Position numbers and translations under genes: made by a program. This document shows, piece by piece, positions 24,591 to 27,476 of a stretch of 41,323 bases of DNA. Numbering within the stretch: position 1 is the first letter of the stretch; each line of letters begins with the position of its first letter. The notes under the pieces are model-generated. The model made no database searches. It was not told where the DNA came from and saw nothing but the letters and a program-made list of their open reading frames with translations. Source of the stretch: Escherichia coli (GTDB lineage Bacteria > Pseudomonadota > Gammaproteobacteria > Enterobacterales > Enterobacteriaceae); assembly GCF_003334405.1 (NCBI RefSeq), contig NZ_QOWM01000024.1; one strand, given 5' to 3'.

Positions 24591-25010
24591 TTATCTCTCA
24601 AGTTCGTTCAGTGCATTTTTGACACGCTCTCTTAAACCGGCTTTCTCTTCGCTTTCTTCCACAGTATTTTCTTCGTCTTCAGAAGAAGAGGGGGCATTCT
24701 CAACCGCGACGCCTGGGTCATCTTCCTCCTCGACGGATTCGACGACGGGGAGTGGCTGTTTTTTGAAGAAATAGTGTTGTGTTGATTGTTTAAAAGCGGG
24801 CGTTTCAGCCTCTACAGTGACTTCGGCTTTTACTATCCAAAGCACCCATAGCTGCCTGGCATACCCACCAACCAGCACCATTCCTGCAAACCACAGGCAA
24901 ATCAGTAATAAACAAATTACATATATTATGGTGCTGTGTTTTTGTCGGGAGAAGATACCAGGGTGACCTGTTTCTTTCTGCTCACGCGCGGCGATATAGA
25001 ATTCAAACAT
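24591..25010 (-). CDS. gspB: type II secretion accessory protein GspB (ExeB-like)
   Basis: 139 aa with single TM segment and acidic Ser/Glu-rich C-terminal region; immediately downstream of gspA. Confidence 0.8.
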   Translation of the reverse strand: MFEFYIAAREQKETGHPGIFSRQKHSTIIYVICLLLICLWFAGMVLVGGYARQLWVLWIVKAEVTVEAETPAFKQSTQHYFFKKQPLPVVESVEEEDDPGVAVENAPSSSEDEENTVEESEEKAGLRERVKNALNELER

Positions 25011-25011
25011 G

Positions 25012-26481
25012 TCATTTCCCCTTCACTGTTGTTTCCGGGGAAATATTTGCTTCATCCCGATATAAGTAGGCACTCTCCCCTGCCACCTGCCAGAGATGTA
25101 CTAACGTTGAAAAGCCAACAACACCGTCAGTTTTCAAGTGGTGGCTTTTTTGAAATTGCTTTATTTTTTCTACCAACAAGGGACGCCACTCCGCCGAAGG
25201 TTCTGTCGAAATATGCAATGCGCGGTTTAACATCGTTTCCAGCCAGAGAATCTCTTCCTCGCTGCTATCACGCGTAATGGTACTCTCCCCTTCCGGCGAC
25301 ATTTTCCACAACAGAAGATAATCACCCGTCCATACCGACTCAAACCATTTATGTGTCAGCGTCCACGTTTGCTGACCTACGAGGACATCAACGCTAGCCT
25401 CACCGACGCGAACGACCACAACAGGCAATTTTTTGTCCCCGACTTTAAGCGATGCGATCCAGGGCAAATTCTGATCTACCAATGTTTGTAAAGAAGCATT
25501 CCCACTTTTACATGCCAGCCCCGCTCTTACTGCCTGATCGCACCAGGCCGAATCAGCTGGGACCTCGTACCCCCATACGCCGTATAACACGCTTAGCGCC
25601 TCACTATCGCGCATCACCACATGAGCAATATCCTTAGTCATATCTTGTTTAACTACTGGCGTTACGGGTATCAGCCACGCAGGAACGGGTAACGTAGCTG
25701 TAAAAGAGGACAGCAGTAGCCAACCACAGGTAAGAGCGATAATGGTTCCACTCATCACCACGGCAAGCTGCATTTTCCGGGGGCGGTTATCACCCAATAT
25801 GCGGTAAATCATTCGCCATTGTTTTGCTGTGAAAACGCTGGTCTGCTCGGCTTGCTGTAATAAGCGAATTGTTTCGCCGGCAAGCGCCAGCTTTCTGCGA
25901 TCGCCCCGACATAATAAAGCTATCCGTTTCAGAACTCTGGCGGTTAAAAGGAGATCGGGTTGGTCAATATTCTGACCTTCAAGGATGCTTGCCTTAAGTT
26001 CGTGCTCCGTCAGACGTCCTATCGAGACAAGTTCAATGCCCTGTTTTTTAAAATCACGTTCGACTTTTCGATCGGGTCTGCCGATCAGCAAAAATTGACC
26101 GTCAGGAATAAGAGATATTGCGCGTTGGAGATCATCAAGTATGCGGCGGTGATTCAGGTGAGCATTTTCAATAATAATAAGAGGGCAGCGACTATCAGTT
26201 CGATGAAGCGCATGCAGTAATTGCCCCGCCATCTCATCTCGCGTCCAGGCGCTGTCACGGCAGCCCTGTTCAGCCGCGTTATCGTCGGTAACGATCCATG
26301 CGGCCTTACCTTGCCAGGAAACAACGAGGCTTAAAGTAATCACACGGCGATGTTTATCTTTTTGCAGTTGCTGCGCCAGCCAGGTTTTTCCACTTCCAGC
26401 CTCACCCAACAAATAGCATAGACGCCAGGTTTGACGTTTCTCACACAACCAGGAAAGAATAACTTCTCTTCTCGTAGACAT
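25012..26481 (-). CDS. gspA: type II secretion accessory ATPase-like protein GspA (ExeA-like)
   Basis: 489 aa, Walker A GEAGSGKT near the N-terminus, TM segment, periplasmic C-terminal domain; divergent from gspC. Confidence 0.85.
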   Translation of the reverse strand: MSTRREVILSWLCEKRQTWRLCYLLGEAGSGKTWLAQQLQKDKHRRVITLSLVVSWQGKAAWIVTDDNAAEQGCRDSAWTRDEMAGQLLHALHRTDSRCPLIIIENAHLNHRRILDDLQRAISLIPDGQFLLIGRPDRKVERDFKKQGIELVSIGRLTEHELKASILEGQNIDQPDLLLTARVLKRIALLCRGDRRKLALAGETIRLLQQAEQTSVFTAKQWRMIYRILGDNRPRKMQLAVVMSGTIIALTCGWLLLSSFTATLPVPAWLIPVTPVVKQDMTKDIAHVVMRDSEALSVLYGVWGYEVPADSAWCDQAVRAGLACKSGNASLQTLVDQNLPWIASLKVGDKKLPVVVVRVGEASVDVLVGQQTWTLTHKWFESVWTGDYLLLWKMSPEGESTITRDSSEEEILWLETMLNRALHISTEPSAEWRPLLVEKIKQFQKSHHLKTDGVVGFSTLVHLWQVAGESAYLYRDEANISPETTVKGK

Positions 26482-26660
26482 AGAACTTCCTGTTTTAATT
26501 ATTGATTATCCTTAATCATAAAAATAATGTATGTATTTATTAATTAAATACATATTACTAATATAAATAAATTTTGCTTGATTCATGCAAGCGGCATTAA
26601 TACTATTTATACTAACGTCAATATACAACCCACCCAATCTATTTTATTAGAACATACATC
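26482..26660. promoter_or_regulatory. AT-rich divergent gspA / gspC control region with 10-bp-arm inverted repeat
   Basis: About 80 percent A+T over 179 bp; perfect inverted repeat TATGTATTTA-ttaat-TAAATACATA at 26530-26554; H-NS silencing of this locus is from memory of the literature. Confidence 0.5.
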
Positions 26661-27476
26661 GTGCCCACACTACGTTTCCCCTTCCATCTGGCGAATCATA
26701 ATAAAGATGCTGCCATCAATATATTGATTATATTTATAAGCATAGGGTCGATTATTTTTAATGTGAATTATTTCCATACAACTATAGTTAAAAATGGACA
26801 GATCATTAATCAACCAACAAACGCATTTCAGTCTGATTTCAGCCTTGCCGCTTTATGGCGTAACGAAAATCATGCTGGGGTAAAAGATGCAAATCCCGTG
26901 GCAGTTAATCAGGAAACACCTAAGCTCTCTATAGCGCTTAATGGCATTGTACTCACATCGAATGATGAGACTTCTTTTGTCTTAATTAATGAGGGGAGCG
27001 AACAAAAGCGATACTCCCTCAACGAAGCCCTTGAGTCAGCGCCGGGAACGTTTATTAGAAAAATAAATAAAACCAGCGTTGTGTTTGAAACTCACGGGCA
27101 TTACGAAAAAGTAACTCTCCATCCAGGGCTACCTGACATCATCAAGCAGCCTGATTCAGAAAGTCAAAATGTACTCGCTGATTATATTATCGCCACGCCT
27201 ATACGTGATGGAGAACAGATATACGGGCTTCGATTGAACCCTCGTAAGGGCCTCAATGCATTTACCACCAGCTTGCTACAACCAGGGGATATCGCCCTCA
27301 GGATCAATAATCTTTCGCTGACCCACCCTGATGAGGTTTCACAGGCATTAAGTTTACTGCTAACTCAACAAAGTGCTCAGTTTACAATTCGTCGCAACGG
27401 CGTACCCCGCTTGATAAATGTTTCCGTCGGGGAACTTACAGGAATGAATGGACTGCGTCATGAAAGGACTCAATAA
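26661..27476 (+). CDS. gspC: type II secretion system protein C
   Basis: 271 aa from GTG at 26661; N-terminal TM segment ([15 protein letters not shown]), periplasmic domain; first gene of the gspC-O operon. Confidence 0.8.

What the first reader, a model, noticed from the sequence alone, without database searches (positions are those of the whole stretch)
26530..26554. Perfect 10-bp-arm inverted repeat in the gspA / gspC divergent control region
TATGTATTTA-ttaat-TAAATACATA is a 25-bp palindromic element in the centre of the 179-bp intergenic region from which both gsp transcription units must start. Its size and symmetry suit a dimeric regulator site or an H-NS nucleation site. It is not explained by any coding feature.
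Basis: seen in the sequence. Interest (0 to 1): 0.45.

Follow-up and report, generated by a model that had tools for sequence, protein, structure and literature searches.

The report
AT-rich palindrome in gspA/gspC spacer
The 25-bp perfect palindrome is real, but it is most likely just the most AT-rich part of an already known H-NS-silenced, SlyA/LeuO-responsive control region of E. coli's cryptic type II secretion genes; its perfect symmetry is confined to E. coli and is probably not needed for function.

Summary
TATGTATTTA-TTAAT-TAAATACATA lies at 26530-26554 in the 179-bp, 23%-GC gspA/gspC spacer of a K-12-like E. coli. It is modestly above chance (p about 0.01-0.02 in shuffles of the spacer) and unique in the window.

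Published work places H-NS, SlyA (EMSA on exactly this 179-bp fragment) and LeuO (SELEX, cited second-hand) on the spacer. No paper I could read maps any of them to the palindrome.

- The best H-NS-motif matches flank the palindrome.
- The proposed SlyA box (26555-26566) abuts it.
- It shares the 7-5-7 dyad layout of the LeuO core site, but the sequence match is at chance level.

Comparative data argue against a need for symmetry. Sister Escherichia clades have only 8/10 arms with a 6-nt spacer. More distant syntenic orthologues have no dyad. A natural 9/10 E. coli variant exists, and this segment is the fastest-diverging part of the spacer.

The palindrome overlaps the -35 of a predicted proximal gspA promoter. 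It lies in the leader of the reported distal gspA starts and about 71 bp upstream of the predicted gspC start. An RNA-hairpin role is weak.

Verdict: ordinary, low interest. It is a plausible docking patch inside a known silencing and counter-silencing switch.

The parts
26530..26554 (.). Perfect inverted repeat TATGTATTTA-TTAAT-TAAATACATA. It is 25 bp with one G and one C, has 7 TpA steps, and lies in the most AT-rich run of the window.
26482..26660 (.). The 179-bp gspA/gspC divergent spacer, 23% GC. It is 100% identical in about 90% of sampled E. coli genomes. Published work places H-NS, SlyA and LeuO on it, and an IPOD-HR occupancy peak.
26555..26566 (-). SlyA box proposed by Curran et al. 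2017 (TTATATTAGTAA, '79 bp upstream of gspA'). It is the only 6/6 TTA-N6-TAA match in the spacer and directly abuts the right arm.
26515..26543 (-). Predicted proximal gspAB sigma-70 promoter TTAATA-17-TATGAT. The -35 (26543-26538) lies inside the palindrome and the -10 is at 26520-26515. It is the best consensus match on this strand (9/12) and is the one listed by Shimada et al. 2014.
26578..26606 (+). Predicted gspC promoter TTGATT-17-TACTAT (an alternative -35, TTGCTT, is at 26574-26579). The block is conserved even in orthologues whose GspA is 41-45% identical. The predicted start near 26613 puts the palindrome centre at about -71.
26600..26614 (-). Two TAGTAT -10-like hexamers (26605-26600 and 26614-26609). 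Each lies 6 nt upstream of a reported gspA start (-112 = 26593; -121 = 26602). Transcripts from these starts run through the palindrome.
26564..26573 (+). Best match within the spacer to the H-NS high-affinity motif (TAAATAAATT, 8.0 bits). It lies outside the palindrome.
26496..26505 (-). Second H-NS-motif match in the spacer (TCAATAATTA, 7.7 bits).
25012..26481 (-). gspA (489 aa), first gene of gspAB.
26661..27476 (+). gspC (271 aa, GTG start), first gene of gspC-O.

Best explanation
The palindrome is the most AT-rich 25 bp of the already known H-NS-silenced divergent gspAB / gspC-O control region. It has no dedicated role that depends on its perfect symmetry.

Proposed mechanism:
1. H-NS binds the AT-rich, TpA-rich spacer. 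It probably nucleates at the better motif matches that flank the palindrome and at those inside the 5' end of gspC.
2. H-NS then spreads or bridges across the palindrome.
3. This covers the -35 of the proximal gspA promoter (inside the palindrome), the leader of the distal gspA promoters, and the upstream region of the gspC promoter (palindrome centre near -71). Both operons are kept cryptic.
4. The dimeric winged-helix counter-silencers SlyA, and probably LeuO, bind in or beside this patch and loosen H-NS.

The perfect 10-bp symmetry is incidental. It is either chance in 23%-GC DNA or the product of a clustered mutation in the E. coli lineage.

Shown, by published work: H-NS occupancy and silencing of the spacer; SlyA binding to the fragment; induction of gspCDEF by SlyA.
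Inferred: all positions within the spacer, the promoters, and the role of the palindrome itself.
For: - H-NS association with the spacer: ChIP datasets K and O in Curran's Table 2; the H-NS flag in the RNAP SELEX table; the promoter-island table.
- The only residual IPOD-HR occupancy peak in this neighbourhood is in this spacer, with the exact H-NS position stated to be unknown.
- SlyA shifts the exact 179-bp fragment, and gspCDEF rises 2.4-fold on SlyA overproduction.
- The palindrome lies in the most AT-rich run of the 41-kb window and has 7 TpA steps.
- It overlaps the -35 of the best minus-strand promoter match.
- Symmetry looks dispensable: 8/10 arms with a 6-nt spacer in sister clades, which is chance level; no dyad in distant syntenic orthologues; a natural T26534C variant in unrelated E. 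coli strains.
- There are no other copies and no regulon signal.
- No transcription factor gene lies in the gsp neighbourhood.
Against: - A perfect 10+10 repeat is still unusual locally (p about 0.01-0.02).
- Both left-arm substitutions between E. coli and the sister clade are mirrored by complementary changes in the right arm (26530/26554 and 26534/26550). My own arithmetic gives a chance of roughly 0.015 for this, and the figure depends on the alignment. It hints at some pressure, or a mutational mechanism, that keeps the symmetry.
- The whole spacer is far more uniform within E. coli than its coding flanks, so the palindrome is not evolving freely within the species.
- No footprint-level data could be accessed. 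Francetic et al. 2000 is not held.
Confidence: 0.55

Rival explanations
1. The dyad is a genuine operator for a dimeric winged-helix counter-silencer: LeuO (or the related LysR-type regulator LrhA) and/or SlyA. One DNA-binding-domain dimer sits on the 7-5-7 core GTATTTA-TTAAT-TAAATAC. From about -71 of the gspC promoter, and over the proximal gspA -35, it displaces H-NS and switches the two operons.
For: - Fragel et al. [quoted passage not shown]
- I reconstructed ATATTCA-TACTG-TGAATAT at Pcas and ATATTGA-TTTGG-TGAATAT at PleuO. The gsp core has the same layout, fits T-N11-A, and matches 5 of 7 positions per half-site.
- Pgsp is cited as a LeuO SELEX target, and SlyA binds the fragment.
- Four overlapping 5/6 TTA-N6-TAA registers lie inside the palindrome next to the 6/6 box. 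Curran's table accepts 5/6 sites at other promoters.
- Mirrored substitutions occur in both arms in the sister clade.
Against: - The 10/14 match to the LeuO core is reached in 53% of shuffles of the spacer, and by four overlapping registers in the spacer.
- The sister clade has a 6-nt spacer and half-sites GCATTTA/GCATTAA, which fit worse, although LeuO and SlyA are conserved proteins.
- The symmetry extends to 10 bp per arm, further than the 7-bp half-sites of the LeuO core.
- The supplementary list of LeuO motif hits could not be read.
Confidence: 0.25
2. The dyad is the operator of an as yet unidentified, E. coli-specific dimeric regulator. This regulator would turn on the cryptic secretion system, and perhaps chiA, under a natural condition.
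For: - The perfect symmetry is specific to E. coli, and the spacer is almost invariant across about 3,100 genomes.
- The co-silenced chiA upstream region has its own highly significant AT-rich inverted repeat with a TATTTA/TAAATA core.
Against: - No regulator gene lies in the locus.
- There is no second copy of the arms in the window, including upstream of chiA.
- In metagenomes, every hit with gsp-like flanking sequence is the gsp spacer itself; the other 18 hits lie in unrelated DNA.
- A 9/10 variant is tolerated in nature.
Confidence: 0.07
3. The repeat acts in RNA, as a hairpin in the 97-121-nt gspA leader. It would work as a weak attenuator or a stability and translation element. The hairpin is followed by CAUUAUUUUUAU and lies 49 nt or more upstream of the ATG.
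For: - Reported gspA starts at -97, -112 and -121 lie to the right of the palindrome. Two of them are backed by well-placed TAGTAT hexamers.
- The hairpin appears in the minimum-free-energy fold of the leader, extended by a bulged helix.
- On its own it is -6.9 kcal/mol, z = -2.9.
Against: - The stem is nearly all A-U.
- The leader as a whole is no more structured than shuffles, z = -0.9.
- In the sister clade the hairpin falls to -3.1 kcal/mol (z = -0.55) and the leader to z = -0.36.
- It is not flagged as terminator-like, and there is no Rfam match.
- The source of the start-site coordinates could not be verified.
Confidence: 0.05
4. The origin is purely mutational and there is no function. 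A clustered change in the E. coli lineage, such as a template-switch 'quasipalindrome correction' or a small replacement patch, rewrote the right arm into the exact complement of the left arm. This concerns origin and is compatible with the best explanation.
For: - In the alignment, 11 of the 27 differences from the sister-clade haplotype fall in 18 bp (26542-26559).
- The segment 26530-26566 has 13 differences in 37 bp against 14 in 142 bp elsewhere in the spacer (Fisher p = 0.0004).
- The E. coli state is perfectly self-complementary and the sister state is not.
Against: - No outgroup aligns here, so the direction of change is unknown.
- The cluster extends 5 bp beyond the arm (26555-26559), which arm-to-arm copying does not explain.
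- The left arm also differs at two positions.
Confidence: 0.3

Closest known systems
H-NS silencing with SlyA/LeuO counter-silencing of cryptic E. coli K-12 promoters (hlyE/clyA, casA, leuO, fimbrial operons), as in Curran et al. 2017, PMC5797941
   Same: An AT-rich promoter region with H-NS occupancy. SlyA binds in EMSA at 50-100 nM and the genes are induced on SlyA overproduction. The gsp spacer itself is one of the promoters listed in that paper.
   Different: The paper proposes the adjacent 12-mer (26555-26566) as the SlyA box and does not mention the 25-bp palindrome. No footprint exists for this promoter in the literature I could reach.
LeuO high-affinity core site IIa at Pcas (Fragel et al. 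2019, PMC6698644): the 19-bp palindrome ATATTCA-N5-TGAATAT
   Same: A 7-5-7 dyad layout with T-N11-A, AT-rich, in an H-NS-repressed promoter. Five of 7 positions match per half-site.
   Different: The sequence match is at chance level for this base composition. The gsp arms are perfect over 10 bp rather than 7. LeuO binding is known only at locus level, from a second-hand citation.
H-NS high-affinity nucleation motif tCGATAAATT (Lang et al. 2007, PMC2094087; the proU sites)
   Same: AT-rich with central TpA steps, embedded among further AT-rich lower-affinity sequence that would allow spreading.
   Different: The palindrome scores only 5.5-6.4 bits, against 5.2-11.4 for the footprinted training sites. 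It lacks the CG dinucleotide of the motif, and four neighbouring sites score higher.
H-NS/StpA-repressed yghJ-pppA-yghG-gspC-M promoter of enterotoxigenic E. coli (Yang et al. 2007, cited in PMC2094087)
   Same: A type II secretion operon of E. coli silenced by H-NS (reference list only).
   Different: It is a different gsp cluster at a different locus with a different promoter. I did not read the paper or compare the sequences.

Membership tests
H-NS high-affinity (nucleation) site, Lang motif | A 10-bp match to tCGATAAATT comparable to footprinted sites | tested here: inconclusive
   With a matrix built from the 11 published sites, the palindrome's best scores are 6.4, 5.8 and 5.5 bits. The training sites score 5.2-11.4. 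Four nearby sites score 7.7-10.4.
H-NS high-affinity (nucleation) site, Lang motif | AT-rich with a central flexible TpA step, flanked by further AT-rich DNA that allows spreading | tested here: met
   23 of 25 bases are A or T, there are 7 TpA steps, and it lies in the most AT-rich run of the window.
H-NS high-affinity (nucleation) site, Lang motif | H-NS protection of this element at the lowest protein concentrations | not testable with these tools
   Only spacer-level occupancy is published. The IPOD-HR paper states that the exact position is unknown.
SlyA (MarR-type) operator | A 12-bp dyad TTA-N6-TAA (ideal TTAGCAAGCTAA) | tested here: not met
   Inside the palindrome there are only 5/6 matches, in four overlapping registers (26536, 26537, 26540, 26544). 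The single 6/6 site is the adjacent 26555-26566.
SlyA (MarR-type) operator | SlyA binding in vitro | not testable with these tools
   Published EMSA shows binding to the whole 179-bp fragment only.
LeuO / LysR-type core site | Two 7-bp half-sites in dyad symmetry separated by 5 bp, with T-N11-A | tested here: met
   GTATTTA-TTAAT-TAAATAC is a perfect 7-5-7 dyad. T26536 and A26548 give T-N11-A.
LeuO / LysR-type core site | Sequence similarity to ATATTCA-N5-TGAATAT above background | tested here: not met
   The match is 10/14. 53% of spacer shuffles reach 10/14, and three other registers in the spacer tie.
LeuO / LysR-type core site | LeuO binding at the locus | not testable with these tools
   This is stated second-hand by Curran et al., citing Shimada 2011. 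The primary paper and the Fragel supplement are not held.
Intrinsic terminator / attenuator hairpin | A G+C-rich stem followed directly by a U run | tested here: not met
   The stem has one G-C pair and is not flagged by the terminator scan. Energy is -6.9 kcal/mol. A U-rich tract does follow on the gspA strand.
Conserved structured RNA | Pairing maintained in orthologues, stability above shuffles, or an Rfam match | tested here: not met
   Leader z = -0.9 in E. coli and -0.36 in the sister clade. The hairpin is -3.1 kcal/mol in the sister clade. No Rfam hit comes near threshold.
Fur box | Match to GATAATGATAATCATTATC | tested here: not met
   The best window overlapping the palindrome matches 12/19. 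The real Fur-like site is at 26720-26738 inside gspC.
Dispersed repeat / mobile-element end | Multiple copies with shared flanks | tested here: not met
   There is a single copy in the window. Of 30 metagenome hits, 12 are the gsp spacer and 18 are unrelated AT-rich contexts with different spacers.

The most novel reading that the evidence does not exclude
The E. coli-specific perfect dyad is a true operator. It would be either a LeuO/LrhA-type core site or the site of an unidentified dimeric regulator. Occupancy would flip the cryptic Gsp secretion system on under a natural condition, possibly together with its substrate gene chiA, whose upstream region carries its own, larger AT-rich inverted repeat. 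This would help explain why the spacer is frozen across E. coli but rewritten in sister clades.
Probability: 0.12. Interest if true: 0.5.

Novelty: new member of a known kind. Interest (0 to 1): 0.2.

Why it matters
The natural signal that switches on the K-12 Gsp secretion system is not identified in any paper read here. The available work describes the system as cryptic and H-NS-silenced, relieved by SlyA overproduction. If the palindrome were the docking point of a counter-silencer, it would give a precise handle for finding that signal, and a compact test case for how H-NS and dimeric winged-helix proteins compete at overlapping divergent promoters.

As the evidence stands, the palindrome adds little beyond what is known about the spacer. 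Its main value is as a target for a simple footprint or a one-arm scramble experiment.

Tried and rejected
1. Cross-species footprinting with genome contigs. It returned only E. coli contamination in two unrelated assemblies: L006, which is K-12-like with long-read indel errors, and the 273-bp L007. Neither was informative.
2. Cryptic-clade Escherichia (L008, L016-L026). They all carry one haplotype, so they give a single independent comparison. P0009/L027 (GspA 93% identical) has the E. coli haplotype.
3. Distant orthologues (L009-L015). The palindrome region does not align and no dyad rises above chance.
4. A tile-by-tile population test with megablast. The palindrome tile is fully masked as low complexity and returns no match. 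I used the whole spacer instead.
5. The primary papers are not held: Francetic 2000 and 1996, and Shimada 2011. The Fragel 2019 supplement is not held either. Reference 52 in the start-site table of Mendoza-Vargas 2009 does not resolve to a gsp paper, so the source of the -97, -112, -121 and -236 starts is unverified.
6. Readings rejected: Fur box, Rfam RNA, intrinsic terminator, dispersed repeat, and a half-site shared with the chiA upstream region.
7. From memory, I compared the dyad with the ArgR, TyrR, CRP, FNR, ArcA, PhoP, NagC/Mlc and Nac consensus sequences. None fits in both spacing and core bases. This check was not computed.
8. Cruciform extrusion. The DNA hairpins are only -5.9 and -6.3 kcal/mol, and nothing bears on extrusion in vivo.

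Full report
**Locus.** The window is K-12-like E. coli; the 381 bp around the finding are 100% identical to MG1655 derivatives. On the minus strand lie rpsJ, gspB (24591-25010) and gspA (25012-26481). On the plus strand gspC starts at 26661 with GTG and is followed by gspD onwards. Further right are bfr and chiA. The spacer 26482-26660 is 179 bp at 23% GC, against about 50% on either side.

**Observation.** The repeat is exactly as described: 26530-26539 TATGTATTTA, spacer TTAAT, 26545-26554 TAAATACATA, 100% complementary. A perfect arm of at least 10 with a short spacer arises in 2.1% of dinucleotide shuffles and 1.3% of mononucleotide shuffles of the spacer. With the spacer limited to 3-8 nt the figure is 0.8%. 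All other inverted repeats of this size in the window are GC-rich terminator hairpins. The palindrome is not central: its centre is 26542 and the spacer's centre is 26571.

**Other copies.**
- There are none in the window at up to 3 mismatches, and the half-site is not enriched.
- An exact-arm scan of 241 million metagenome records gave 30 hits. Twelve are the E. coli gsp spacer. Eighteen lie in unrelated, mostly very low-GC or microsatellite-like DNA, with different spacers and no shared flanks.
- The same arms therefore recur by chance in AT-rich DNA, and there is no dispersed motif.

**What is published about the spacer.**
- H-NS ChIP datasets mark gspCDEF (Curran et al. 2017, Table 2).
- The spacer is listed as an H-NS-associated 'promoter island'.
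- It is the only residual IPOD-HR occupancy peak in its neighbourhood. That paper states that the region is repressed by H-NS binding but that the precise location was unknown.
- SlyA shifts a biotinylated PCR product that is exactly these 179 bp, with an apparent Kd of 50-100 nM. gspCDEF rises 2.4-fold when SlyA is overproduced.
- The proposed SlyA box, TTATATTAGTAA '79 bp upstream of gspA', is the reverse complement of 26555-26566. It touches the right arm.
- The same paper counts Pgsp among LeuO SELEX targets.
- RNA polymerase sigma-70 genomic SELEX lists two predicted promoters for this spacer. For gspAB it gives TTAATA-17-TATGAT, which is 26543-26538 and 26520-26515, so the -35 lies inside the palindrome. 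For gspC it gives TTGATT-17-TACTAT, which is 26578-26583 and 26601-26606. My own scans recover the same hexamers.
- Mendoza-Vargas et al. 2009 cite earlier gspA starts at -97, -112, -121 and -236. These correspond to 26578, 26593, 26602 and 26717. The -112 and -121 starts each lie 6 nt downstream of a TAGTAT hexamer, which supports the conversion. The cited source could not be traced.

**Position of the palindrome.** It overlaps the -35 of the proximal gspA promoter candidate. It lies at +24 to +72 in the leaders of the distal gspA starts. It is centred about 71 bp upstream of the predicted gspC start (near 26613).

**Motif tests.**
- H-NS. A matrix from the 11 footprinted H-NS sites of Lang et al. 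gives the palindrome 5.5-6.4 bits. Higher scores fall at 26564-26573 (8.0), 26496-26505 (7.7), 26716-26727 (8.9, on both strands) and 26748-26757 (10.4). The palindrome is nonetheless in the most AT-rich run of the window and has 7 TpA steps.
- SlyA. Only 5/6 TTA-N6-TAA matches lie inside the palindrome, and the 6/6 site is adjacent.
- LeuO. Fragel et al. [quoted passage not shown] I recovered ATATTCA-TACTG-TGAATAT at Pcas and ATATTGA-TTTGG-TGAATAT at PleuO. The gsp core GTATTTA-TTAAT-TAAATAC shares that layout and 10 of 14 bases. However, 53% of spacer shuffles reach 10/14, and three other registers in the spacer tie.
- Fur. The palindrome is not a Fur box.

**Conservation within E. coli.**
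- The spacer is 100% identical in 54 of 60 evenly sampled genomes, out of about 3,130 that carry it. Only 4 genomes fall below 99%.
- By contrast, 1,160 of 3,141 genomes are 95-99% identical over the 381 bp that include 202 bp of coding flank.
- The rare spacer SNPs are at 26534, 26560, 26565, 26576, 26577 and 26653.
- T26534C occurs in two separate isolates, one from the USA and one from Viet Nam, and reduces the palindrome to 9/10 without compensation.

**Conservation outside E. coli.**
- Cryptic-clade Escherichia (E. ruysiae, Escherichia sp. MR, H605; GspA 75% identical) all carry one haplotype, AATGCATTTA-TTGATA-TTAATGCGTT. This has 8/10 arms and a 6-nt spacer. Seventy-two per cent of shuffles of that spacer reach 8/10.
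- The segment 26530-26566 is the divergence hot spot of the spacer: 13 differences in 37 bp against 14 in 142 bp elsewhere (p = 0.0004).
- The blocks that hold the predicted promoters are conserved.
- Both left-arm substitutions are mirrored by complementary right-arm substitutions. This fits mild selection for symmetry, RNA pairing, or a templated mutation, but it is a single comparison and depends on the alignment.
- Syntenic orthologues whose GspA is 41-45% identical (Superficieibacter and unnamed metagenomic lineages) keep the rpsJ-gspB-gspA / gspC-D-E layout and the TTGCTT...TAATACTATT block. They have no significant dyad.

**Structure.**
- In gspA-sense RNA the hairpin is -6.9 kcal/mol and appears in the leader's minimum-free-energy fold, but the leader is not unusually structured (z = -0.9).
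- In the sister clade the hairpin is -3.1 kcal/mol and the leader z is -0.36.
- There is no Rfam match.
- The DNA hairpins are -5.9 and -6.3 kcal/mol.

**Conclusion.** The element is real and locally unusual, but every line of evidence that could single it out as a discrete site is negative or at chance level. The surrounding spacer, in contrast, is a documented H-NS, SlyA and LeuO target. The most economical reading is that the palindrome is the AT-rich core of that silencing tract and overlaps promoter elements, and that its perfect symmetry is incidental. About a quarter of the probability remains with a real dyad operator for LeuO, LrhA or SlyA. A footprint and a one-arm scramble would settle the question.

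Noticed in passing
window 41084-41129: The chiA upstream region (chiA ATG at 40936, minus strand) carries a 46-bp AT-rich inverted repeat, ATTCATATTTAAAATGTTAA-ATTGAA-TTGATATTTTAAATATGAAT. The arms match 18/20, and the outer 15 bp are perfect. None of 2000 shuffles of the 242-bp spacer reaches this, and the DNA hairpin is -10.3 kcal/mol. It is statistically stronger than the gsp palindrome. chiA is described in the literature as the H-NS-silenced substrate of this secretion system. It shares only a TATTTA/TAAATA core with the gsp element.
   Followed up: partly
window 26715-26738: Inside the 5' end of gspC there is a perfect 14-bp palindrome, ATCAATATATTGAT (26715-26728). It overlaps the best Fur-box-like 19-mer of the region (26720-26738, 14/19) and a strong H-NS-motif match on both strands. 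Chen et al. 2007 report an EMSA-confirmed intragenic Fur site in gspC overlapped by a sigma-70-like site, which is probably this one. A reported gspA start at -236 (26717) falls here too.
   Followed up: partly
window 26482-26660: The whole 179-bp spacer is 100% identical in about 90% of about 3,130 E. coli genomes from all major lineages, while the adjacent coding DNA differs by 2-3% in over a third of them. This is unusually strong conservation for an intergenic region of a 'cryptic' operon. The cause is unresolved: selection, a low mutational supply in AT-rich DNA, or recombination.
   Followed up: partly
L065 (E. coli EC2001, NZ_CP133811.1), junction at about window 26516; L038, junction at about window 26520: In strain EC2001 an IS1A element sits immediately after window position 26516 and is followed directly by gspD, so the palindrome, the rest of the spacer and gspC are gone. 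A low-coverage metagenome contig (L038) follows gsp from the gspD side down to 26520 and then switches to unrelated sequence. This could be a different insertion or an assembly chimera. Either way, breakpoints cluster in the A/T run just left of the palindrome.
   Followed up: partly
window 26576-26592: A small hairpin, GCTTG-ATTCATG-CAAGC, overlaps the predicted gspC -35 and lies at the reported gspA starts. The scan flags it as terminator-like on the minus strand. The stem is broken in the sister-clade haplotype, where CAAGC becomes CAACC.
   Followed up: no
L009 2717-2762 (spacer positions 239-284 in window orientation): A distant syntenic orthologue (GspA 45% identical) has an AT-rich inverted repeat with 18-bp arms, TATATTTATAATTATTAT-N10-ATAATAATTATAAATATA, between gspA and the called gspC start. 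It may lie within an unannotated N-terminal extension of gspC.
   Followed up: no
L006, L007: Public assemblies labelled Flavobacterium paronense CECT 8460 (contig tig00000213) and Alkalicoccobacillus porphyridii P16 (a 273-bp contig) contain E. coli rpsJ-gsp sequence. The former is K-12-like with long-read indel errors. Both look like contamination.
   Followed up: partly
window 26600-26614: A tandem ATACTA...ATACTA (9-bp offset) gives two minus-strand TAGTAT -10-like hexamers that overlap the plus-strand gspC -10 (TACTAT). The gspC promoter and the distal gspA promoters therefore overlap back to back, and RNA polymerase could occupy only one orientation at a time.
   Followed up: no
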